The notes beneath the pieces are model-generated. The model ran no database searches, was not told the origin of the DNA, and was given only the letters and a program-made list of their open reading frames with translations. Positions 35,940 to 52,144 of a DNA stretch of 64,000 nt are shown here, piece after piece. The translations under genes were made by a program, and so were the position numbers. The number at the start of each line of letters is the position of its first letter. The stretch's first letter is position 1. The stretch comes from a bacterium (lineage in GTDB: Bacteria > UBA8248), in contig CBDBZY010000018.1 in NCBI GenBank assembly GCA_965213685.1, forward strand, positions 384,001 to 448,000, in the 5' to 3' direction.

Positions 35940-38102
35940 GGCTGGATCTGGGGAGAGGGAGGAGGGGGAGATAGCCACTGAGTGAAGTTTCACATGCACA
36001 TAGTTACTCATGTACAGTGTACATGTATGTGTGTGAGCATATGCATGTCTTGTCCAATTTCAAACACAGTGAAGCTTGTAAGCTACATACACTTGTGCAT
36101 GTGCTGTGGGCATACATCAACACACCTGTGTATCAGTTTATGGGAGAGTGTTTCTAGCTGTGTAAGCCAAGCTAGGCAAATGCAGTCTAGTGTTGTGTGC
36201 AGGTTCTTTTAGTCCATTCCACATGCAGGTGGCAGGTGGTTGCTAAGCTGAGTGGGGAAATCCCATCATGTAGCCCTTCTGTCTAACTCCACCCTTAAAG
36301 TGGTCTCTATATAGAGTGGGGGAAATCCCACAATGTTGCGCTAGCTCTTTTGTTTTGCTCTGCTTTCAATTCTCTGCTAATATGCTTGCATGAGGAAATC
36401 GCTTCATGCTATGGATTTTGTGGCAGCATACAAGGACATTCTGGGACCTTCTAAGTTCTAGCATTACTGGAAGTGTGACTGTGGACATTAGCATGATGGG
36501 GTAGGAGTATGCAGCAAGGAATGGTACAGTAGTGGCTTCAAGTGGTAGAAAACTGTGATGAGAAACCAAGTCAAGTGGTAAAGGCACGCTCAGGGTATTA
36601 TACCTACTCTTAGGGGAGGGGCTTGCTCAGATACACGACGGAGCTGAAGACAAATATATCTCGAGCGTTCAGGGCTCAAGAATCCGAGCGCTGTACGCTC
36701 AGCAGAGCAAAGGCTAGGGCCGCGCTTGCCCATGTCAGGAAGCAAGTGACGCTCGGACGGGCGATGGGGAAAGGGCGCTCGGACATGTGACGAGATAAGG
36801 GCTGACTGTGAGAGCTGGGCTTCAGACAACTCTAGTCCTACCATGCAATCACAAGAGTAAGAAATCTCGCCACTTGTTCCCACAGTGGTACATGTACATT
36901 GTGGCCCTGCGCTCGCTGCCGGCGGCGCATATGGTATTAAGGTAGGCGGGAGGTGTATACTCGAAACTTTTACAGCTTTGACTGTAAGCTTACTGTGGCT
37001 CACACTTTCTGTGTTCTCCTAGCCAGTTGAATGCGCTCTTTGTTTTCCCTTGCGCAGGGCGAGGTTCACTCTGATCTGTCCCACCCTTTGCTCAATAGTA
37101 TCCTAGAAGTATGCGGATATGGACGACAGTGGGTCTTATGCAAAACCGGAAGTTCTATAGGAAATATGAATATTGCTGTTCATAGGAAGTCTATTATCCA
37201 AACTCATACACTCCAGAAACCCACGTCCACCATTGCGATCCGCCATATGGCCTGCACGCGAAAGCATGAAAGCATAATATGGTTACTAGTATACGCTGTC
37301 AGTTCAATGGCTAGTGCTGCATCCACAGGTTGTAAAGTACACGTCATGCCAACAACTGATCGTCTGCGCTAAACTATAAAGTAACAATTTTCCTGTGACT
37401 TCAGCTACACAAACATTATACATTTTTTTCAAATACTCTCCGGTTCCATGTGTTCAGATACGTGACTTCCTACAGTAGCTTTTCACGTGTGACGGCGCGT
37501 CATCCACAAACAAGCCACGCGGAGCCACGCCTCCCCAGAGAAGGCGTGGCTCTGCGAGGCTGCGAAGTAGAAAGCCACAACTGCGACTATTAATATGAGA
37601 CTCAAAGTCATTGTGGGACTAGTATTGGAGGGCCTAATATAGTTCTTGGGATGGGATGACACAACCCACACTTAAAGCCATCATTAAAAAATGTAAGAAT
37701 CCTTTGATACTAAGGCTATATTATATAGTCTGGCGAAGCCATACCCGGGTGTGGCTTCGCCAGAGTAGCTTATATATGCATATACGTACATGAAACTTAT
37801 GGGTCTGATATGTTTTAGTTCGGTAGTTTTGTTGTTTCCAAATGTATACGTTCTTGACTTTTTGTTTTGTAATAATGTACATGTACATTTCGTCTTTGTG
37901 GTCTAGGTGAAATATGGGGTAAGTGAGAGGAGTGTATGGTCTGTAGAGGGTGGTATGTGTTTTCCAGGGGCTGGGAGTATGTGTTCTATCTGTGAGAGTG
38001 GGTATTTACTCTGAGAAAATCATGGGGTGTGCTTGTATGTAAAGCAAATAGACAGGTGTTATTAGACGAGCTTATGCATGTGTGTGTGTGTGTATGTGCG
38101 TG

Positions 38103-38193
<91 letters not shown>

Positions 38194-38205
38194 GTGTGCG
38201 TGTGT

Positions 38206-38236
<31 letters not shown>

Positions 38237-39718
38237 GTAGTAAAACACACGTAATATTATATATGTAGCTATTGATTAGGGGTTAATATATCATACTGAA
38301 ATGTATTCAAATGATCCATAATCAACAGCAGTAAATTCACAAAATCATTGACAACCACAACAATAACCTATAAGCACGTATTTGACATGTCACTTGCCTT
38401 TTCAACACTGTTTCTTGTACTTTGCACATACACTTATGCATGTGATTATGTGTATGCACTTCCATTAAATTGTCTGGGGCTAAAGCTGGGCTGGAGAATG
38501 CTAGCTAGGGAAGGGAGAGAGGGTGATAACAGTCCCTTCCCCTTTTCCGGGGGCCCATCTGTACTTGAATTGAAACCCTGGTAGTCTGCATGAGCATGAG
38601 GTGCATGCAGCTGTGGCAATGCATCCCTTTTTTCACCCCTTACTGGTGTGCAGCAAAGGTACACTGTACACATACTTCATCTCACAGAATATTCTGTGGG
38701 GGCTTGATCAAAGTTAAGTGCAAATGAGTACATATTTCCCTCTCACTGGACATACACCCCCTATTTCTTAAGTGCACTATTACATCATAATAACTATAAT
38801 TATATAGACAGGAGTTTGTACGGAACTTTCCAGGCAGATTATGAGAATAATGTTCGCGAAACTACCACCCGGAAGTAGTATAGTATATAGTGTGAAGACG
38901 CGGCGCGCCGCCCTGGCCCCGCTTACGTATCTATAAGCCAAGTAGACCTACATGTAGATGTACGTGTAGATGCTGGGCTCGTGTTCGTCTAGGGACACAG
39001 TTGGCCTAAGAGTGAGGATCGCAGCTGAACGGATAAAGGCTACAAGACTGTCGACAGACTGAGTGAGTTTTTCCGTGTTCGTGCACAGCCTGTTGATACT
39101 ACGTAGTAGCCTGTTGATACATAGTCAGGTGTCTGCTTACACGAGCACTGGAAAGGGGCAGGCCTGCTGAGCTGTGATTGTGTGAGGTGTATGTAGTTAG
39201 GTGCGTTGTGTTGTTGCCCACTGCCTCAGCGTCCATTGGCCCTCCTGCACATTTACTTGTATAGTGCAATGCCGCAGTCAGACACATACACACACATGAA
39301 TGCATAAGCATGTGAAGTGAATAGTTCATGTGCAGTGTATGTGCACTGTTCATGTGCAGTGCAGTGCTCTCCTTTCCTTATGGTGGCCCAAACGGGCCAT
39401 CCACTACCGTCTTCGGCAAGCTTCCATTTCCATCAAACTTCCACTTCCATAGAAATTCCACTTCCATAGAACTTCTACTTCCGTGGAGCTTCCACTTCCA
39501 TGATCTTGCCTTCCATTGCTTCGTTCGTCATGCGCTCACCACAATGTGCAGTGCGCATGCGCAGTTCAAATCGAATGGCTCTGTCACTGCACCCGCTGCG
39601 CAGATCGTCCTTGTTGGAGACGTCCATCGCATACAAATACGCCTCACCTTAGTGGATCTTCCGGGCCACTTGTGTATCTTTCTTCTTTGACTACAGCCTT
39701 AGCAACCGGAAGCGTAGC

Positions 39719-42700: not shown

Positions 42701-43277
42701 GCCCTTGTGTTTATGCATACAGCAACACCTCCTGTTATCCATCTTGACTTGAAGCCAGCTAATATACTGGTGAGTTAGTAAGGTTCAGCAGTGATACAAA
42801 GTAATAGAAAAGAAGTACTTTTATGAAATAGTGCAAAGTGCATGAGTATGATTATGAAGATAGATGTTTATGTATTTCATATAGGTGGAGAACAAGACAA
42901 TGCACATTTTTTTGGCGGACTTTGGTCTTTCAAGGATCTTAAGTGACTGTGACCTGGTTGGCTCAACAACCATGAGAGCAGGAACACCAGGATTCCAGGC
43001 TCCAGAACAGCTCCAAGGAAAAGGAATATCTCCCAAGTCTGATGTATATGCACTAGGTGGTGTCATAACCGAAGTGTTTGGAGAAAAAGTACTCTGGCCG
43101 AAGATGCCAGCCCACAGGATAATGTTTCGTGTTGCTGTTGAAGGTGTGTTTCCTTCTACCAAGCATCTACCACAAGTGATACAAGAGGTGACAAGCCTGT
43201 GCTTCATTGGGAGTGAGGCTAGAGCCGATGCTGCCACAGTTCTTGCAAAAGTACTGGACATGTGTTGTGACAAGTAA
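39719..43277 (+). CDS. Spliced (~15 exons) protein: N-terminal domain, Ig-like domain, TKL/RIPK-like non-RD protein kinase
   Basis: Ig: C..YHWKRNGEPV..DSEGTYECQV. Kinase: LGSGSFGRVYRGVWRGTMVAAK, ENEI, HPNILALLG, IHLDLKPANIL, LADFGLSR, GTPGFQAPE, SDVYALG. GT-AG introns; no stops seen in the joined exons. Confidence 0.85.
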
Positions 43278-43392: not shown

Positions 43393-46300
43393 TCACTGAA
43401 ATTCATTAATGAGGTTGAGATAGAGAGTAAATGATTCTTCACAGTTATTTGGCATGTACCAATCGTTTTCGTCCATTAAAAATTAATATCAACTAGCTCC
43501 AAAAACTCAATGCAAGCAGGTGCTGGTTTTACAGTTGAATACTGCTGGCAATACTGCAGATCTTGGGCGTCACAAGCACACTGGCATTCTTCATAACCTG
43601 TAATAATATATTGGTCACCAATGTTAAGGGTAAAAATTTGAGGATTACCCTGCAAAGAAGGAATGTTGTACAGCTCTTCAGGTATACCACTAATGCCACC
43701 TCTCCTACACCGTATGAGATGGGTATTCCACATTTGAGCAATGTCATCCAATTCTGCTTGGAGAATGCCCATAAAGGCAAACCGAATGCAGTCACTGCAC
43801 ACAAAGAGTATAGTATCAGTGTTACCCCTACACCTATAAAAAGTGTTAACATACACATACACATGTATTGGACTGGTTTCATCGAAGTGTCCATTGTCTT
43901 TCAACATCTACATTGAAGAATACATAGTGAATATATGAAACAATTACAATAATGCTTCTATAAACAACGTACTTTGAAAAATTCCAACCACCAGTCAGTA
44001 CACCACTCTCGCAATGTACACCAAAACCTCTCAATTCTCTATAATCATATATATATAATAATTATATAAACACTACAAGTAAGATTTTTTTGTTGCCATA
44101 TTGTCACTAGTTATGTTACATGGTGGAGTTGATCATGTTTTCTACACTAATGTATACCTAGCATGCGAAATATGACCCACTGCATCCCAACAATAGTCTT
44201 ATTCTAAACTTTTGTTAGTGTGAAGCCCATACTTTTTCTGATGTATACACTCCAGTCACATTCAATGTGATTTTGAGTCTAACTGAGTAACTGTCTTGTT
44301 TGACAGATCTGACTCCTTCAAGCAGTCGCAACCCATGCTTCCTATATATGTAATGTACTAGTGCTGACCTGGTTACTGACAGACTTTCCATACTGGAAGC
44401 TCTTTCTTCCTGCCATTGAATCTTGTCCATTTCTTCTCAGAAATGGTTGTAAAAATGCCACTCTAACATTTTCTGTACCTCTGTCAGTACGAATAAGTCT
44501 TGGAAGCCCTAGAGCAATGTGAAATATAAGTAATGTGCACCCCAAAGATATACAAGTACCATATCTCTCAACAGCTTTCAAGTAGTAGCCTGCAATAACA
44601 GCAGGATCTTTGTTTGTGGTGGCAATTTCTAGCCACAAGACTTTTCTGGAGAACCTGTAAGAGATTATGGTGCACTGTAAAAACGGAAAGGTTACTTTCA
44701 CCAAGTGTGACTAAAGTACCAGTTCCGTTAGTGTATGAAACAAACTTGGCAAGATATATTTTACCACCAGCGGTGATTTTAACTTTTCCAGTTGTTTTAA
44801 ACTTCATTGAAAAATGTACCTTCCTAACATGTAAAGTAACCATAATCACAGTGCTTATGACATACTAATTACTCTGGTAATATTCACCAAAACCCCTGTT
44901 GCTTTGACCTCCAAGACAGATAAAAACAAACTGTGCATTACTACATTTACTACATTGCACAGCCTACTGATGAGTCCCGGCGCAGTACAAGTAAGGGACG
45001 AAAAGGTCGTCAAAGTGACCTTCTAGGCTTTTGAAATATTATTATATTGTGCAAAAGTTGACATTACAAACACACATTTTCAACATACGCATACACTTAG
45101 AAAGCATGAAAGTACTCTTTCAAATAAACATACAGAATGTCGGATTTTCTGTGAGCATGGAGTATCGTATGAACTTTCAACTCAGAAAAACACACGTATG
45201 ACTGATCAGCTGTGTGTGCAATCACAAAAGCATGATAGTGGTCATCGTAGTACTCCACAGAACAGTGTAACACGTGCAGTACGATGATATCCACCAACAC
45301 AAGTATATCAACTATTCTGGCAAAGGCTGGATGAAGTCCATCACATCCTGTTATTATGTAGGCATTCCTTTTGATGGTATTCCCCAAGTATTTCACCCAG
45401 TTTGGGCGAGTTGTTGGTGTTTCACTACTAATACTAGGGAGAAGAGATGTAAGAGAATTTTGCACATGGGGAGGCATATTTCTAATCAAGATGGGTTGAT
45501 CACATGGTCCACATTGTAAAGGTGAATCCAACAGATTTCCAGTTGAGAGCTCATAGCATAAGAGCCGCTGATGACAATTAGCAATGCTATATGCTATGTT
45601 TTTAAAATTGCCCAGTCGAGAAGCTTGCTTAAAAATATTCAACTTTGCTTCATTGCGCATATTCCATGTGCCAATCATTGGACCAACATTAAGGATTTGT
45701 GTTGGGTAATGAAATAAAAAATGAAACTTTGGGGTGACTGCTTCAGCAGTGTACATTTCAATGAAGGATCGATGGTGTTCCTCAATTGTAACTTTTAGAA
45801 TAGCACAAAGGTCAGGAGATGACCATGAACACAAAGCTAGATCTACAATCTTTGAGAGCAATAAAAATCATTTCCACTTCTGATCATCAAGAGGAACAAC
45901 GTCACCTATGAGGAGTGGAAGAATTCTAACAAGGAGTAATGACTGTGATGCGGACAGTTTGAGAGATTTTGCGTTTTGTAATGTTAAACGTGACCCAATT
46001 GGTTGTGGCTTGCTTATTTCAGTGTATTCATAATCAAAGTGTATCAGGCGGTGATTGTATTCATCAAGATTGAGGTATTGCTTTGATATTAAACAGTGCT
46101 GCAGTAGTAAACACATCTCTATTGCAGCAACTCCCTCAAGTAAATCATGCATGACATCATGCGCCAGTCCACCATTAAAGAGTGAAAAGTGGGATACTTC
46201 TAATAGAGAACTGCGTCTGTTTATTCCATATGTTTTGGAGAAATGATCATGCAAAGGACCATTGAGTGAATCGCACTCTTGGCAATGCTTTTCATCAGAG

Positions 46301-49300
46301 CGGAGTTCTAATTGAGAGGAGTCAGAGAGTGTTTTAAATACATCCTGAGTCACATAGCATGTTCTGCAAAAACGGAGAGAAAAAGAAAAAGACTCCTTGA
46401 ATCCCCCAATCGTATTGCTACCTAAATTATCACCCAAACACAGGAGGAGTCCGCCATAAAATGTTCTCTCGACACCAGGTTGTGTTACAACTCTAACACC
46501 TTCTGCTGCTAAGATATTCAGATCCTTAACAAAAGGTTTCAAAATCTCATCGATCCCATAGTTTTCCACCAATGGGACAGTAGCTGCTATTGCGAGATGT
46601 ATTGCTCGCAGGGAAGAGCGGTACTTAGGGTGGATATTTCCCAATGTAAAGAGAACAATTGCAAGTTTATGCTTCTTGACATGGGTCCCCAGTGGATTAC
46701 ATAACTCAGGCTCATCAAAGAAAGCTATAATTTGCAAGGCACAGGGATCACTTGCAAAGATAGGGTGAGTTTTGAATCTAATACCATCACAATAATCCTC
46801 TATGATCCCATCACTGTGAACTCGGGATGAACACTGTTCTACCTCATCCAGGACGGCAGCATCAGACAAAAGTGACTTGAGGGAAGAAAGGAGAGGAATG
46901 TATTGGTATTGGTCTTGCCTTGCAATTAGTCGCCTCTTTACTCCAGTAAAGACTGGTTCATAGTATGGGTCGCCAATGTTAACTTGCTGAGGTTCCTATG
47001 AGTAATGTGTGTGTGCATGCATGCATGCAAGCAAATGGGGATAAATGAAACAAGATTCATTTCCTGTAGGAAGCTGTCTGTCACATGGCTTCTATGTGTA
47101 CCATTTGTGATAGTATACTGCAAGAAATACCAAGTATGTTACTTCAAAATTGTTTTGTGCCTGACTTGCTAAACTTACCACTAGTCCAAGCTCTTCACAA
47201 AAGTATTTCTCCTGGAGGTAGCGAGCTTCCAGTCCTTCAAAAGGGCTTGGAGTGTCTTGAAAAACTTCGTCCAGACCATGAATTCCACCAACATCTATTC
47301 CAGCAACAGCAAGTGTATCCCGAACTCTGGCACCCATTTGCTGCTTCACTTGAGAGAATAAGCCATCCCAACCCTGCACAATATCATCAATTGCATTCTG
47401 TGAGAGCCTTCTATGCTCTTTCAGTTTCAGGAGAAACAAGGCTGATGATCGTTTTTGAGTAGCTTTGTCTGTGCCAAGAAGGTGACTTAGGTCAGCATGA
47501 AATCCTTCTGCAAAGAAGGTGCATACAGATACTTAGTTCAAAGATGAAGACCGGATGAAAGCATGAACAGGTAGTCATAATAGAGCAACTTGCAATCAAT
47601 ACCTGGCAAATCCTGAGATGCCGCAGCCGGATGTGCACCAGAAACCAAGGCAGATTCGACCTCCTGAGGAATGCTCAACTGATGTTCTCGCTTCTGGATT
47701 ATTCCGTCCTCGGGGTGGCGGCGGTAGATGTGAGAATAGAGTGCAGAAAAAGATCTACCCGTGTACGCACATCCACCAATGCCGCACTGAACACTGAATC
47801 TAGGGTCACTACTATGTAGTAGACGAAGATGGCTAAGATTTCGCGCCATCGTGGGTGACTCGAAGTGACACATGGGGCACTTGTAGCTACCAGCTGTGCC
47901 GCCTGACATTTCCAGCATGATTCGAGTAGATCTCCAATCCTACCAAACGGGCAATTAGCGAAGCTACGCCCATTGCACACGCATGCGCGGTAGGCGTACG
48001 ATGACGCTGCATATATTGGCGGGATTGCGAGGGTTTGCCAAGTGCAGCAGACGGCCCGACGTTACAGGGAAGCTAAGGATACGTGTACTTGGTGTCTACA
48101 GGGTGCAGCGCGAGTGGGCCACTTGAAAGCCGTCCTATTTGGCCCGAGTAAAATCGACCGCGGACGTGACGGAGTTATGGCATGTGAGACGTCCAACGAC
48201 AAGTCGGACTTGACCAGCAAAACAGTAACGGAGCTCAGCGCGTGGCTTGAAGAGAAGGGGATACCACAGGAGTTTTGCAGAGTATTTGAAGGTAAAGGGA
48301 AACGCTTTGTCTTGACATTCTTACCACATCTGGGTTAAAGGCCCCCCCCTGTACGTTTAGTACACCCAAGGCGCATGTCTATTTGTACCATACGCATGGG
48401 TTATATTATCTGCGTAAGTGTATTTTCACCTGTTTACGTGTGGTTACGTGCCGCGCGGATTAGGCGGTGGGCTAGAGGTGTTAATTTGCCCTTGTGGTGT
48501 TTGTAAAAGCTGACCCCTGTGGTTGCCAGGCTACTAATGCTCGTTTCTACCTGCTAGACAATTACATTGATGGAACTGAGTTTGTGGCCTTATCTGAAGC
48601 AGAGATCAAAGAAATGGTTCCACCTATTGGTTTAGCCAAGAAGATTATGAAGCTTGTTCCCAAGGTAGGCACTTTGTACCTTGTGGTGATTTATGTGAAT
48701 TCTATTGACTCTTGGTTGTCCTGTGTTTTTTGAACTTATTTCAGGAGCCAGTACTGCTGTCAGCAGGCAGCAGTGGACACCTAGCTTCCAGCTCTGTCAC
48801 ATCGCCCCTTAACTCACCTCCAGCTTCACCATCCTTTTCACCGACTTCTTGTGGTCCTGGATCTCTGTCCAGTGTTTCCACTACACCTTCTAGGTCAGAC
48901 AAAGTTTGTATCCCTGACTTCTGGAGAGAGGACACCCAACGCTGCATAGATGAGGGAGTACTTGATGATGCCAGTCGCAGTGACATTGTGCGCACACTAG
49001 TGACACTTCTTGTTTCCAAGTATGGTCCAAAGCCAGGTAGAATGCGACTGGAGGAGCTGGGAAGAGCACTGATATTGAAGTATCCCTTTATGAAGGACGA
49101 TCTTGGAAATGGATATGTAAGTAGGTGTATACTCAATTACTACTGAACGTTTGATAGCTATGGATGAGTTATAACTCATTGCTTATCACCTTCAGATGTG
49201 TTTTGGTTGTGGAACTCCTTTTCCTTTTCTTGAGTACATTGACCAGCTGCATGTAACTCAGTGGGAAAAAGTACATGTATTACTCACATATGTATACTTC

Positions 49301-52144
49301 ATGAGTATCGACTTGTGGTTTGGTAACTACAGAGTATGTCTGTTTCTGAATTTCTCTTCTGAGAAATCTGGCACAAGGTACCTCTCAATTTTCAACTTTA
49401 TATTCCAGGCATCATGGGTAGATAAGATGAAGGAGTGTCTTGAAAACCGGCTAAAAATGAGCAGAAGAAAAATGAAGAGGCAGGGAGATACAGCCAGCCC
49501 TAGTGCAAAACGTCAGCGGAGCTCCCATCCTAAAGATCACTTGCTGCAACGGTCAGTATTTGTTGAACTTCCTACGTCTAGCATGCAATATTTCATAGTA
49601 CTTATTAATTGTAGGTATCCAGTACGAGTACAAGATGTAGAATCTGAGGACCCAAGAAGTGTGGTAGAGCATAACAAGGCCCTGTGTGAAGAAATGAAGA
49701 AGCCAAAACCTAGAGACGCCCTCCTTTTGCCATTGATGAAGAAGACCTTCCAAGACCGGAGGATTTTCATTCAAAATGATGCATCTACAGTTGTGGAGAT
49801 ACTGGAGCACTACCCAGCTATGGCACGACCAGCAGTGGTAAGCCTCGTTTTGAGTACTACAATAGAATAGGCATTGCTAACAATTTTCGGGCATTACTGA
49901 TGGTGTTGCTGTGCATGGAGGGCCTGAGGTACACAACTGACAATTAATTGAGGCCTCTACCTTCCTGTACAGATTGAACAGGAAATTGCTCTTATTGTCG
50001 GAAAGAAGGACATTCGAACCACATTTGAATCATCTTGGGTGTCCTCTTATGTGCCTGCCCTTCTCCAGTATGGAGAAAGGAGCAAGAAGAAGGCAATAAG
50101 ATGTATTTATGGGCAACTCATAGAGTCAGGTACTAATACAGAGACACCTTACCTGTGTATTTGTGCATGAACAGTCTCTTACCATGTTTCTGCAGATGAT
50201 ACGTCCAGACAAGTAACTGCTTTGACTCTGTTGGTGGCGTGTATGAAATGTCCAACTGAAAAGGATGTTAACCCTTTATGCTACCTGTATCAGCAATACG
50301 ATGTAAGTACTTGATTTGAATGTGGAATGGAATAATTATTGTGTATATACTATCTGGTGCAAAGTCACATACAAATTATGTGTTCTTTCATCTAGGTTAC
50401 TGAGACACCTGAGCACGTTTGTCGGGAGACAACCTCCCGGAATTCTCCAAGAATAGCTGCCTTCATTGGAGAAGAGTCTCAACAATATTTTATACTCCTT
50501 GAGCAGAGGGTCCTCTGCCAGGTTTCATCACTTCAGTTTGCGTTATTCATTATGTTCAGTGCTTACTATACATTTCATTTGGAGTATCCTAAGCCTGTGA
50601 AGAATGTCATGCTATTTCTTCAAGATTATGTGTTGTCATTTCCAGATGGGCAGCGTAGACCTGCCACTTACCTTGCCACTGCGTCTGATATTAAGAAACT
50701 CTCTCTTTGACTAATTGTTTTTCGTGTTTTTCACTTGTACTCAGGATTTTTGTAGAACTCAATCCATGTTTTTGTGACTTCACTAACTGTGGATAGTAGT
50801 TGTATATGCTTGATGAGGTGAATAGTGGTAGATATCACATGGGGGTGTAAATTAACTGAAAGTGTGTTGGTTAAGGTTAGTTACATGAAGGTAGTAGTAC
50901 TGGACTGTGGTAGTTTTTGCCACTAACAGGTGTGGTTAAATGGCAGTAGAAAGGGTGTTTTTCTTCTTATAGTAACATGAGAACAATCTTTGGAGTGGTT
51001 TCTTTACACAAGTGATACAAACTTTAAAACTCTAAATAAAAGGATTACTTGTAACTTTTAATTGGATTAAATAATCTGTGATTGGTGGTACAGCACACTT
51101 CAAACATTAGGGTTAGTACAATCCATCAGGGAGGTAGTTTATCCTTCCTTAACAGTGAAAAAACCCTACATTATGTTGTTTTAAACTCTGTCATTACCAG
51201 TTGATTTTAACTCTTCCTGATTACTCTCAACCACTGTATGGATATGAATAATCACATTGTGAGAGGGTGACTATCACCATTAACTAAGAAGGGGATATGT
51301 AACCACTTTGTGGGTTGCCTGAGTTGCAGGTGAAGTCACCCAATTTTTATGGTTGAAGTAACCATTTCTTTTTTACAGTGTGGTTGCCTCACAGGTTTAG
51401 GTATGACCTCTGTCCAAATGGTATACACACCCATCTATGCAGCCATGGATTGAAAATCCATATGTCTTCAGTTTGTCATTCCCATCCATATGCCAGCAGA
51501 AATTTGGCCCCTAATATTGATATATATATACTAAAGTTACATACAACATAAAACAGATGATATTTCTATATACCTTTGAGCTATAATTCCTTCTCACAAG
51601 CCGATGCTTTCTCCTCAGTCTTACACTCTCTGGATCAATAGCTGCTAGTGTTTGCCTCACAAATTCCCTAATGAAAAGTTATGTCCTTTTCCAGCAGCAC
51701 TTAAATCCTGCATACTTAATAGCATACCTTGGTACTCGAATTTTGTATTTCCTTAATAGCCTCAAGTGCAGAGCTCGATAGCCCAGCAGGGAACCAGACT
51801 GACTGAGTTCAAACTACATAGGTATAGTGTAAGGCTCGTTTGTGACATAACTCTACCAGTTAACTGTGATGTTGACATATACTTACCATTATACACCTTC
51901 CAACGTGCTGTAGATCACTGTAACCTCCTCTTCTTCTCAACTGTTGCCTTTTCAGACTACGCTTTAATGTCCTAAGGGATATGAAAATACCATACACCGC
52001 AACCAGGAAGCATAAAATCAGTTCGTATTGGAAGCCTTCGTCAAAAAGACTTCGAAAAATGTCGTCCCTTGACAGTCCATAAGGAAGAGGTAGAGCATTC
52101 ACCGTCTCCAAGAGAGTGCAGAGCGCTACTGCAAATACCGCCAT
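43393..52144 (-). CDS. IS3EU-like transposase (Clr5-like domain + rve integrase DDE), spliced; probable frameshift near 43480
   Basis: YGIFISLRTLKRSLKRQQLRRR; GSLLGYRALH; GPNFCWHMDGNDKLKTYGFSIHGCIDG|FSRKVLWL; PRLIRTDRGTEN; GKSVSNQRIERFW; WNTHLIR. Confidence 0.85.
44961..45029 (+). ncRNA. Type I hammerhead ribozyme
   Basis: Stem I AGCCUA/UAGGCU; core CUGAUGA; stem II GUCCC/GGGAC; GAAA; stem III AGGUCG/UGACCU with loop UCAAAG; cleavage triplet UUC (after 45023). All core nucleotides present. Confidence 0.85.
45097..47918 (-). pseudogene. EnSpm-type transposase with N-terminal C2H2 fingers; one in-frame TGA at 45868-45870
   Basis: YKCPMC..HLRLLH, CGIGGC..HIYRRH; FFDEPELCNPLG..HKL; GDNLGSNTIGGFKESFS..CRTC; HDVMHDLLEG; TPKFHFLFHYP..GP..WNMRNEAK. 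Exons ~47918-47602, 47509-47179, 46995-45097. Confidence 0.85.
48177..50710 (+). CDS. SAM-domain (SAMD3-like) accessory gene of the EnSpm element, ~8 exons
   Basis: ELSAWLEEKGIPQEFCRVFE|DNYIDGTEFVALSEAEIKEMVPPIGLAKKI (SAM); ALILKYPFMKD; LMKKTFQDRR..ILEHYP; C-terminal FSAYYTFHLEYPKPVKNVMLFLQDYV. Confidence 0.8.

What the first reader, a model, noticed from the sequence alone, without database searches (positions are those of the whole stretch)
44930..45052. Complete hammerhead ribozyme inside an EnSpm DNA transposon, antisense to and just downstream of the transposase
Seen: full type I hammerhead (CUGAUGA/GAAA/UUC core, stems of 6, 5 and 7 bp). Loop II GCGCAGU (44980-44986) can pair with flanking ACUGUGC (44930-44936) or AUUGUGC (45046-45052), a possible pseudoknot. 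It lies ~70 nt past the transposase stop and ~290 nt inside the left TIR, on the opposite strand, with no Penelope ORF nearby. Known: animal hammerheads are mostly tied to Penelope elements and retrozymes, not cut-and-paste transposons. Inference: it could cut read-in antisense transcripts (here from the convergent kinase direction) before they cover the transposase, or define the end of an antisense RNA.
Basis: partly seen in the sequence, partly recalled or inferred. Interest (0 to 1): 0.75.

Follow-up and report, generated by a model that had tools for sequence, protein, structure and literature searches.

The report
Pseudoknot hammerhead ribozyme inside EnSpm transposon
A genuine self-cutting hammerhead RNA motif, one member of a small family scattered through this animal-like host genome, sits inside a young cut-and-paste (EnSpm-type) jumping gene on the strand opposite its transposase; it is probably a passenger there, not a proven part of the transposon's machinery.

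Summary
At 44961-45029 (+) lies a complete type I hammerhead: core CUGAUGA/GAAA, G10.1-C11.1, A15.1-U16.1, C17 at 45023, and helices of 6, 5 and 7 bp. Its minimum-energy fold is the hammerhead. No Rfam family reaches threshold.

A model built from it found four more copies in a second assembly, G001. These keep the core, a 16-nt loop II and all helices, with compensatory changes.

The 7 nt just 5' of helix I (44954-44960) pair with loop II (44980-44986). The central 5 pairs form in 24 of 25 cells, and 3 pairs covary.

The transposon is real. CACTG inverted ends lie at 44673 and 51380, and contigs from other runs break exactly there. The window is a eukaryotic contig inside a nominally bacterial assembly.

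The ribozyme is not a general EnSpm feature. None of 57 related transposase loci has it. Its four G001 relatives lie at least 10 kb from any such transposase or end.

Best reading: a real ribozyme carried as a passenger. The antisense-cutting role is untested.

The parts
44673..51380 (.). EnSpm/CACTA-type DNA transposon, 6.7 kb, that carries the ribozyme
   Evidence: 25-nt inverted ends starting CACTG, 22 of 25 positions alike. Contigs of other runs start or stop matching exactly at 44673 and 51380 with different flanks (X8 records 17 and 21; X10 loose end at 51380).
44673..44697 (+). Left terminal inverted repeat
   Evidence: The motif GGTTACTTT/AAAGTAAC recurs on both sides of the ribozyme.
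51356..51380 (-). Right terminal inverted repeat
   Evidence: About 30 nt of it match many places in the eukaryote-like contigs of G000 at 79-92% identity.
44954..44960 (+). 5' strand of the pseudoknot (AUUGCAC; G at 44959 in all four other runs), directly 5' of helix I
   Evidence: Pairs with loop II 44980-86. Covariation across 5 family members. 44959 A>G in X7-X10 restores the one mismatch.
44961..44966 (+). Helix I, 5' strand (AGCCUA)
44967..44973 (+). Core CUGAUGA (C3-A9)
   Evidence: Invariant in all 5 family members.
44974..44999 (+). Helix II (GUCCC/GGGAC) closed by the 16-nt loop II. Loop nt 44980-44986 (GCGCAGU) are the 3' strand of the pseudoknot.
45000..45022 (+). Core GAA, then helix III (AAGGUCG/UGACCUU, 7 bp, starting with A15.1-U16.1) with the 6-nt loop UCAAAG
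45023..45023 (+). C17. Predicted self-cleavage is between 45023 and 45024.
   Evidence: Position relative to the core. C at this position in all 5 members. Cleavage itself is inferred, not shown.
45024..45029 (+). Helix I, 3' strand (UAGGCU)
44930..44937 (+). Upstream segment ACUGUGCA. It can pair with 44956-62 and so competes with the pseudoknot and the outer part of helix I.
   Evidence: The minimum-energy fold of 44920-45070 uses this hairpin instead of helix I.
45097..47939 (-). Transposase gene: C2H2 fingers at the N-terminus, then a Tnp2-like core. This copy has an in-frame stop at 45868-70.
   Evidence: ORFs. Weak zinc-finger Pfam hits. 284 relatives, some carrying PF02992. Atlas neighbours are eukaryotic, some with PF02992. 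45868 T>A in X7 and X8.
48039..50986 (+). Second gene of the element, transcribed away from the transposase and spliced
   Evidence: GT..AG joints 48289/48556 and 50302/50396, plus two flagged ones, in contigs of run X10. No Pfam family at the curated cut-off.

Best explanation
The motif is a genuine type I hammerhead self-cleaving ribozyme of the pseudoknot-stabilised kind. When the + strand is transcribed, helices I (6 bp), II (5 bp) and III (7 bp) form around the canonical core. The 7 nt directly 5' of helix I (44954-60) pair with loop II (44980-86), which holds helices I and II side by side. The RNA then cuts itself between C45023 and U45024. The upstream piece ends in a 2',3'-cyclic phosphate. 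The downstream piece begins with a 5'-OH and is antisense to the transposase.

The motif belongs to a small dispersed family of such ribozymes in this host genome, which is eukaryotic and most likely an invertebrate animal. One member has become part of the 3' subterminal region of a young, multi-copy EnSpm/CACTA-type DNA transposon. I read it as a passenger there. Whether it arrived by capture or by a small insertion is unresolved. Its only predictable effect is to sever any transcript that enters the element from its left end.

Shown: the motif, its conservation and covariation, the transposon borders, and its absence from related transposons.
Inferred: catalysis, the passenger status, and the consequences for RNA.
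For: Motif and fold. Rarity by chance.

Family. Model R1, built from this one sequence, hit four places in G001 at 52, 40.9, 40.9 and 28.4 bits. Model R2 added a fifth at 60.8 bits. All share CUGAUGA, GAAA, C17 and a 16-nt loop II.

Covariation. On the model-fitted alignment, 92.8% of cells are paired and 3 pairs change on both sides. Sliding the partners drops pairing to 21-49%. My register-corrected table shows changes on both sides at 3 helix I pairs and 1 helix III pair. For the pseudoknot, the central 5 pairs are paired in 24 of 25 cells and 3 of them covary. For all 7 pairs, 80% are paired against 64% in shuffles, and 1 of 500 shuffles reaches that. The single mismatch (A44959) reads G in all four other runs.

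Pseudoknots joining helices I and II are an established hammerhead feature in all three types, including the type I human C10orf118 ribozyme (PMC3088659, passages read).

Transposon.

Passenger reading:
- 0 of 57 loci encoding relatives of the transposase (31-58% identity) hold a hammerhead, by descriptor or by model. By my reading of the tables, 36 of the 57 extend at least 1.1 kb past the match.
- Only 68 nt (44960-45027) of the element's left 428 nt match G001.
- The G001 copies have no EnSpm transposase, no CACTG end and no Pfam transposase or RT frame within about 10 kb.
Against: No cleavage assay and no RNA ends have been seen.

In the longer 151-nt fold, helix I is replaced by competing pairings, so activity may depend on co-transcriptional folding.

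The family has only five sequences from three lineages, probably all from one or two closely related genomes. The covariation counts are therefore small, and the alignments were partly fitted to the model.

Copies of the transposon in other runs are >=99% alike. Two variable sites fall in the 76-nt ribozyme (44959, 44979), which is no sign of extra constraint.

The related transposons examined are distant (at most 58% protein identity). Closer relatives (60-71%) could not be fetched, so the motif could still be an old feature of this subfamily.

One G001 pair (L066/L067) has a broken helix III, and G001 copies have G-U at 10.1-11.1.
Confidence: 0.6

Rival explanations
1. Adaptive insulator. 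The transposon keeps the ribozyme because it severs transcripts that read in from flanking host genes, or start in the left end, and run antisense to the transposase. This would limit double-stranded RNA and small-RNA silencing, or define the 5' end of an antisense RNA.
For: The position and orientation fit. The motif lies 288 nt inside the left end, reads inward, sits 67 nt beyond the transposase stop, and lies among the subterminal repeat motifs. A kinase exon lies upstream on the same strand at 42885-43277. All contigs of the element from four other runs that cover the place carry the motif, and their G at 44959 completes the pseudoknot. The type I layout leaves only 6 nt of ribozyme on the downstream product.
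Against: 0 of 57 related transposase loci have any hammerhead. No second ribozyme guards the right end. Relatives of the ribozyme occur outside transposons. There is no sign of extra sequence constraint among copies. No RNA evidence exists.
Confidence: 0.2
2. Secondary insertion of a fragment of a hammerhead-bearing retroelement (a Penelope-like terminal repeat or a non-LTR retrozyme monomer) into the transposon's subterminal region.
For: The host genome holds Penelope-type minimal hammerheads. RF00163 hits: 37.5 and 29.9 bits. Four weaker R2 hits in G000. Type I hammerheads of animals are mostly in such repeats (PMC7229834, passages). An imperfect 8-nt direct repeat, ACTGTGCA at 44930-37 and ATTGTGCA at 45046-53, flanks a 108-nt segment holding the ribozyme. 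By my estimate such a repeat is expected by chance.
Against: The family differs from those minimal forms: a 7-9 bp helix III, a 16-nt loop II and a pseudoknot. There is one copy per locus and no tandem array at the ribozyme. No RT or GIY-YIG frame was found among the ORFs scanned near it, in the window or at three G001 loci. Only the ~68-nt ribozyme itself is shared between loci of different lineages.
Confidence: 0.12
3. A chance look-alike with no catalytic or biological meaning.
For: No Rfam hammerhead model reaches threshold. The z-score of the fold is modest (-1.84). A scan over very many windows would be expected to turn up about one such motif by chance (my extrapolation).
Against: Four further sequences in another assembly keep every core base, the cleavage-site C and all helices. 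They show changes on both sides in helices I and III and in the pseudoknot.
Confidence: 0.03

Closest known systems
Pseudoknot-stabilised type I hammerheads, e.g. the human C10orf118 intronic hammerhead (Perreault et al. 2011, PMC3088659; passages read)
   Same: Open helix I and a canonical core. A roughly 5-bp Watson-Crick pseudoknot links the helix II loop to sequence next to helix I, in place of loop-loop contacts. A stable helix III allows action as a single motif. It occurs as an isolated copy, not in a tandem array.
   Different: There is no detectable sequence kinship; no Rfam hammerhead family reaches threshold. It is found in an invertebrate-like genome and, in this copy, inside a DNA transposon instead of a conserved intron.
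Canonical type I hammerheads of animal non-LTR retrozymes (Cervera and de la Pena 2020, PMC7229834; passages read)
   Same: Type I topology in an animal-like genome of low G+C, with dispersed multiple copies.
   Different: Those lie in tandem repeats of 150-450 bp and use loop 1-loop 2 contacts. Here there is one motif per locus and no tandem repeat, and a pseudoknot.
Minimal hammerheads of Penelope-like elements (PMC4209133, listing and start of abstract only; PMC6155905, passages)
   Same: The same host genome carries them. They are also type I.
   Different: Those have a very short helix III with a palindromic loop and are thought to act as dimers. This one has a 7-bp helix III hairpin, a 16-nt loop II and a pseudoknot, with no reverse transcriptase nearby.
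HDV-like ribozymes at the 5' ends of non-LTR retrotransposons such as R2 (recalled; Ruminski et al. 2011 appears only in the reference list of PMC6155905)
   Same: A self-cleaving RNA near one border of a mobile element that separates element RNA from read-in host transcript. It is a working analogy for the insulator reading.
   Different: A different ribozyme class. Those act on the sense RNA that is the transposition intermediate. Here the element moves as DNA, and the ribozyme is antisense to its transposase.
En/Spm (CACTA) DNA transposons, Pfam PF02992 Tnp2-type transposase
   Same: Ends start CACTG. Short subterminal repeat motifs are present. There are two genes. The transposase's relatives carry PF02992.
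   Different: The two genes are transcribed divergently. The flanking duplication is not a clean 3 bp. I found no report of a ribozyme in such elements (searches; passages).

Membership tests
Hammerhead ribozyme class, type I | Conserved core C3 U4 G5 A6 N7 G8 A9 ... G12 A13 A14, an A15.1-U16.1 pair, and H17 (not G) | tested here: met
   CUGAUGA 44967-73, GAAA 45000-03, U45022 and C45023. The same in all 5 family members.
Hammerhead ribozyme class, type I | Three helices around the core, with helix I open and helices II and III closed by loops | tested here: met
   The minimum-energy fold gives 6, 5 and 7 bp. 92.8% of cells are paired across 4 sequences, with 3 pairs changed on both sides. Per-pair table.
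Hammerhead ribozyme class, type I | A tertiary contact between helices I and II (loop-loop or pseudoknot), needed for fast cleavage at physiological Mg2+ | tested here: met
   Pseudoknot 44954-60 with 44980-86. The central 5 pairs are paired in 24 of 25 cells and 3 pairs covary. This is comparative evidence only.
Hammerhead ribozyme class, type I | Site-specific self-cleavage | not testable with these tools
   Needs in vitro transcription or mapping of RNA ends.
Rfam hammerhead families (RF00163, RF00008, RF02275, RF02276, RF02277) | Score at or above the family's gathering threshold | tested here: not met
   0 hits over the window at gathering. Best was Hammerhead_3 at 15.2 bits against 48.5. 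The RF00163 search of the whole assembly did not list this place.
EnSpm/CACTA DNA transposon | Terminal inverted repeats beginning CACTA/CACTG | tested here: met
   44673-97 and 51356-80, 22 of 25 alike. The borders are confirmed by contig breakpoints in other runs.
EnSpm/CACTA DNA transposon | 3-bp target-site duplication (recalled as typical of the superfamily) | tested here: inconclusive
   The flanks read GTG on the left and TGG on the right. Only a 2-bp TG is shared.
EnSpm/CACTA DNA transposon | Tnp2-type transposase (Pfam PF02992) | tested here: inconclusive
   The window's own frames give no Pfam hit at E <= 0.01. The 66%-identical P0002 hits PF02992 only at E 0.0025, below the cut-off. 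10 of the 120 listed relatives carry a precomputed PF02992. Atlas neighbours include PF02992 clusters.
Penelope-like element or non-LTR retrozyme | A reverse transcriptase/GIY-YIG frame nearby, or tandem 150-450-bp repeats each with a hammerhead | tested here: not met
   No such Pfam family among the 24 window ORFs scanned. There is a single ribozyme hit in the window. The only tandem repeat is a 9-nt unit, 2.1 copies, at 44938-56.

The most novel reading that the evidence does not exclude
The hammerhead is a functional part of this EnSpm lineage. It would be a built-in self-cleaving insulator that cuts read-in or end-initiated antisense transcripts 288 nt inside the element. That would spare the transposase mRNA from double-stranded RNA formation and small-RNA silencing. 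If so, it would be the first ribozyme recruited by a cut-and-paste DNA transposon.
Probability: 0.17. Interest if true: 0.75.

Novelty: new member of a known kind. Interest (0 to 1): 0.42.

Why it matters
It adds a hammerhead family that no Rfam model reaches at threshold. The family is type I, has a stable helix III and is held by a covarying pseudoknot. It sits in an invertebrate-like genome where the known hammerheads are the minimal Penelope type.

It also documents a hammerhead carried inside an apparently active DNA transposon. My two literature searches, and the passages I read, do not report that setting.

If the ribozyme proved to serve the transposon, it would link self-cleaving RNAs to the control of antisense transcription in class II elements. 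If it is a passenger, it shows how DNA transposons can spread ribozymes through a genome.

The case is also a reminder that this 'bacterial' assembly is about half eukaryotic DNA.

Tried and rejected
Rfam scans. The window at gathering gave 0 hits. In 18 related loci the only hit was a eukaryotic SSU rRNA fragment in L014. L079, L080 and L082 at E <= 0.1 gave no hammerhead family, only sub-threshold miRNA look-alikes and tRNA-like hits.

Search for the ribozyme region elsewhere in G000, by DNA and by model: only itself, plus weak minimal hammerheads.

Bacterial relatives. 0 of 41 genomes of G000's family had an R2 hit. Of the 131 other genomes of G001's family, 1 had a hit (G145, 31.2 bits), which I did not follow.

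Earlier findings of the scan: five look-ups, nothing bearing on this.

Sequencing runs: no RNA holder listed. Run X10 behaves like cDNA because it holds spliced joints. Its 213-nt contig 44898-45110 spans the cut site, but contigs carry no strand, so it says nothing about cleavage.

In-silico removal of the element from the interrupted integrase-like frame, with 0, 2 or 3 nt taken out, gave no continuous frame, so it did not help fix the duplication length.

Inverted-repeat searches around the G001 ribozymes found no transposon ends.

The 8-nt direct repeats flanking the ribozyme (44930-37, 45046-53) were considered as a target duplication. I dropped this because, by my estimate, about one such repeat is expected by chance.

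Relatives of the transposase at 60-71% identity could not be examined as DNA, because the tool that fetches their contigs is closed.
Full report
**1. The observation**

The + strand at 44961-45029 reads as a textbook type I hammerhead.

| Part | Sequence | Coordinates |
|---|---|---|
| Helix I | AGCCUA / UAGGCU | 44961-66 / 45024-29 |
| Core | CUGAUGA | 44967-73 |
| Helix II | GUCCC / GGGAC (G10.1-C11.1 closing pair) | 44974-78 / 44995-99 |
| Loop II | 16 nt | 44979-94 |
| Core | GAAA | 45000-03 |
| Helix III | AAGGUCG / UGACCUU, loop UCAAAG | 45003-09 / 45016-22 |
| Cleavage site | C17 | 45023 |

The 73-nt core folds into exactly this structure as its minimum-energy and centroid fold (-22.2 kcal/mol, z -1.84).

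Rfam does not recognise it. There were 0 matches at gathering over the whole window. The best permissive hit was Hammerhead_3 at 15.2 bits, E 1.9.

A descriptor scan of my own over the whole 8-Mb assembly, both strands, gave three hits at >=4/4/3 bp. This is the only one with long helices. In 40 Mb of Markov-simulated sequence I found 8 hits at >=3/3/3, one at >=4/4/4 and none higher. Extrapolated, a 6/5/7 motif is expected about 0.04-0.1 times per Gb. That is negligible for one window but not for a scan of many thousands of windows. Comparative evidence was therefore needed.

**2. Where the window comes from**

The window is G000:C18:384001-448000. G000 is held as a prokaryote genome of 8.0 Mb, but its contigs fall into two G+C classes. 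One class is about 65% G+C. The other is a set of large contigs at 43-53% (C18, C64, C41, C16, C51, C7 and others). Genomes of the same bacterial genus are 2.9-4.6 Mb.

The low-G+C contigs carry eukaryotic features:
- GT..AG introns;
- a (TG)n microsatellite, a kinase exon and kelch repeats;
- Penelope-type minimal hammerheads;
- a transposase whose nearest Atlas clusters are 100% Eukaryota.

I conclude that the window is host DNA, most likely from an invertebrate animal, binned with a bacterium. The phylum is not established.

**3. The transposon**

A 25-nt inverted repeat starting CACTG lies at 44673-97 and 51356-80, with 22 of 25 positions alike. Contigs of four other public runs are >=99% identical over the element. 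They start or stop matching exactly at 44673 and 51380 and have other flanking letters there. The element is therefore a young, multi-copy family with these borders.

On the minus strand, a frame with C2H2 fingers and a Tnp2-like core runs from about 47939 to a stop at 45097-99. This copy has an in-frame stop at 45868-70. It reads as a sense codon in runs X7 and X8.

The core has 284 relatives at E <= 0.001. Ten of the 120 listed carry a precomputed PF02992. The window's own frames do not reach Pfam significance.

A second gene on the + strand (about 48039-50986) is spliced in run X10. Short GGTTACTT/AAAGTAAC motifs recur on both sides of the ribozyme, as expected for EnSpm subterminal repeats. 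The flanking duplication is unclear: GTG against TGG, with only TG shared.

The ribozyme thus lies 288 nt inside the left end and 67 nt beyond the transposase stop, on the opposite strand.

**4. Is the ribozyme real?**

A covariance model built from this single sequence (R1) found nothing else in G000. It also found nothing in 57 loci encoding relatives of the transposase.

It did hit four places in G001, the assembly behind locus L056, at 52, 40.9, 40.9 and 28.4 bits. G001 is another nominally bacterial record of 20.3 Mb. A second model (R2) added a fifth place at 60.8 bits.

G000 and G001 share a dispersed repeat at up to 99% identity. Their eukaryotic parts probably come from the same or a closely related host.

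The five distinct sequences are the window, L063, L066 (identical to L067), L068 and L098. They fall into three lineages whose flanks do not align. All keep CUGAUGA, GAAA, C17 and a 16-nt loop II.

On the model-fitted alignment, 92.8% of cells pair and three pairs change on both sides. Pairing falls to 21-49% when the partners are slid. In my register-corrected table:
- the closing pair of helix I is A-U here and G-C in the four others, and two further helix I pairs change on both sides;
- one helix III pair is G-C or U-A.

Blemishes: L066/L067 have a broken helix III; L098 has one helix III mismatch; three of the four distinct G001 sequences have G-U at 10.1-11.1.

**5. The pseudoknot**

In every member, the nucleotides directly 5' of helix I are complementary to nt 2-8 of loop II.

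| Member | 5' strand | Loop II nt 2-8 |
|---|---|---|
| window | AUUGCAC | GCGCAGU |
| L063 | UGAGUGC | GCACUGA |
| L068 / L098 | UAAGUGG | CCACUCU |

The central five pairs form in 24 of 25 cells, and three of them change on both sides. For all seven pairs, 80% are paired against 64% in shuffles; 1 of 500 shuffles reaches that.

The one unpaired cell is A44959 in the window's copy. All four other runs read G there, which completes the helix.

Pseudoknots that tie helices I and II together are established in all three hammerhead types, including the type I human C10orf118 ribozyme. Their disruption lowers rates by orders of magnitude (PMC3088659, passages).

In the 151-nt fold, 44931-37 pairs instead with 44956-62 and displaces helix I. 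It is better seen as a possible competitor.

**6. Is it a transposon feature?**

All contigs of this element from the four other runs that cover the place carry the motif. They are >=99% identical throughout, however, and two variable sites fall inside the ribozyme. There is therefore no measure of constraint.

None of the 57 loci with relatives of the transposase (31-58% identity) holds a hammerhead, by descriptor or by model. Of these loci, 54 come from metagenomes and 3 from genomes. By my reading of those tables, 36 extend at least 1.1 kb past the match. The best relative, L056, has no such motif in the 1.2 kb after its stop.

Conversely, the G001 ribozymes have none of the following within about 10 kb: an EnSpm-like transposase, a CACTG end, a long inverted repeat, or a Pfam transposase or RT frame. 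Of the element's left 428 nt, only 44960-45027 match G001.

The ribozyme is the only shared module. I therefore favour the reading that the element picked up a member of a pre-existing dispersed ribozyme family.

A retroelement origin is not supported:
- no RT frame nearby;
- no tandem array at the ribozyme;
- an architecture unlike the minimal Penelope-type motifs of the same genome.

**7. Mechanism and function**

The comparative evidence shows a hammerhead with all features of a fast, single-motif ribozyme. Three things are inferred:
- it cuts + strand RNA after C45023;
- the upstream product ends in a cyclic phosphate;
- the downstream product, which is antisense to the transposase, starts with a 5'-OH and lacks a cap.

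Any transcript entering from the left would be severed. A kinase exon lies upstream on the same strand, so it could be one source. I give it about 0.2.

No RNA evidence could be obtained. No RNA holder was listed, and contigs cannot show strand or ends.

**8. Literature**

Two full-text searches coupled hammerhead with DNA transposon, EnSpm, CACTA, transposase or terminal inverted repeat. I judged the listings by titles and abstract starts and read passages of the two papers that held both kinds of term. None reports a hammerhead in such an element.

The contexts named for eukaryotic hammerheads in the passages I read are retrozymes, Penelope-like elements, SINE-like repeats, a rodent 3' UTR and amniote introns (PMC6155905; PMC7229834). 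I saw no supplementary files.

**9. Verdict**

This is a real, conserved, pseudoknot-type hammerhead of a family not in Rfam, riding in a young EnSpm transposon. The functional interpretation is unproven and, on present evidence, less likely than a passenger role.

Noticed in passing
whole window (G000:C18) and contigs C64, C41, C16, C51, C7 of G000: The nominally bacterial 8-Mb assembly is about half eukaryote-like DNA. Its contigs are either about 65% G+C or 43-53% G+C, and same-genus genomes are 2.9-4.6 Mb. G001 (20.3 Mb) looks the same and shares a repeat with the window at up to 99% identity.
   Followed up: partly
window 45868-45870 (-): An in-frame stop splits the transposase frame in this copy. 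Runs X7 and X8 read T>A at 45868, which makes it a sense codon, so other copies are probably intact.
   Followed up: partly
window 48039-50986 (+): A second gene of the element is transcribed divergently from the transposase and spliced at GT..AG sites (48289/48556 and 50302/50396, plus two flagged joints) in run X10. It has no Pfam family at the curated cut-off.
   Followed up: partly
window 43476-44672 (-): The transposon abuts (at its left end, 44673) an integrase-core-like frame (PF24764 rva_4, E 6.9e-6) of another, unclassified mobile element. The frame does not continue across the empty site.
   Followed up: partly
window 44840-44894: In contigs of runs X7 and X8 these 55 nt are replaced by AGTT. 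This is a structural variant of the element's subterminal region, just upstream of the ribozyme.
   Followed up: no
G000:C56:57792-57836 (L059), C41:335872-335916 (L060), C16:524483-524539, C61:34115-34170, C41:119457-119512, C18:636811-636866: Minimal Penelope-type type I hammerheads, with a very short helix III and the GGCC-UGG..-GGCC helix II. One is above the RF00163 threshold at 37.5 bits.
   Followed up: partly
G000 contigs C64, C41, C51, C16, C18 (e.g. C64:217354-217402 and 217845-217875): About 30 nt of the element's right inverted repeat recur at 79-92% identity in many places. This suggests short non-autonomous relatives. None carries the ribozyme.
   Followed up: no
window 27250-27469, 30096-30201, 38079-38238: A short dispersed or tandem repeat family gave most of the 165 matches to G001, at 71-99% identity.
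   Followed up: no
L105 12547-13674 (-) (G001:C26): A 376-codon open frame lies about 2.5 kb upstream of the L098 ribozyme on the same strand. That ribozyme may lie in or after a host gene.
   Followed up: no
G145:C3:854700-854791 (L101): A 31.2-bit match to model R2 in a 7-Mb genome of G001's bacterial family. It is possibly a bacterial hammerhead.
   Followed up: no
L014 2930-3195 (-): A fragment of eukaryotic small-subunit rRNA (70 bits) lies next to a transposase relative on a metagenome contig.
   Followed up: no
G000:C18:195143-198462 (+): A second, distant (27-46% identity) and fragmented copy of the same transposase kind lies on the window's contig but outside the window. It has no ribozyme.
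   Followed up: partly
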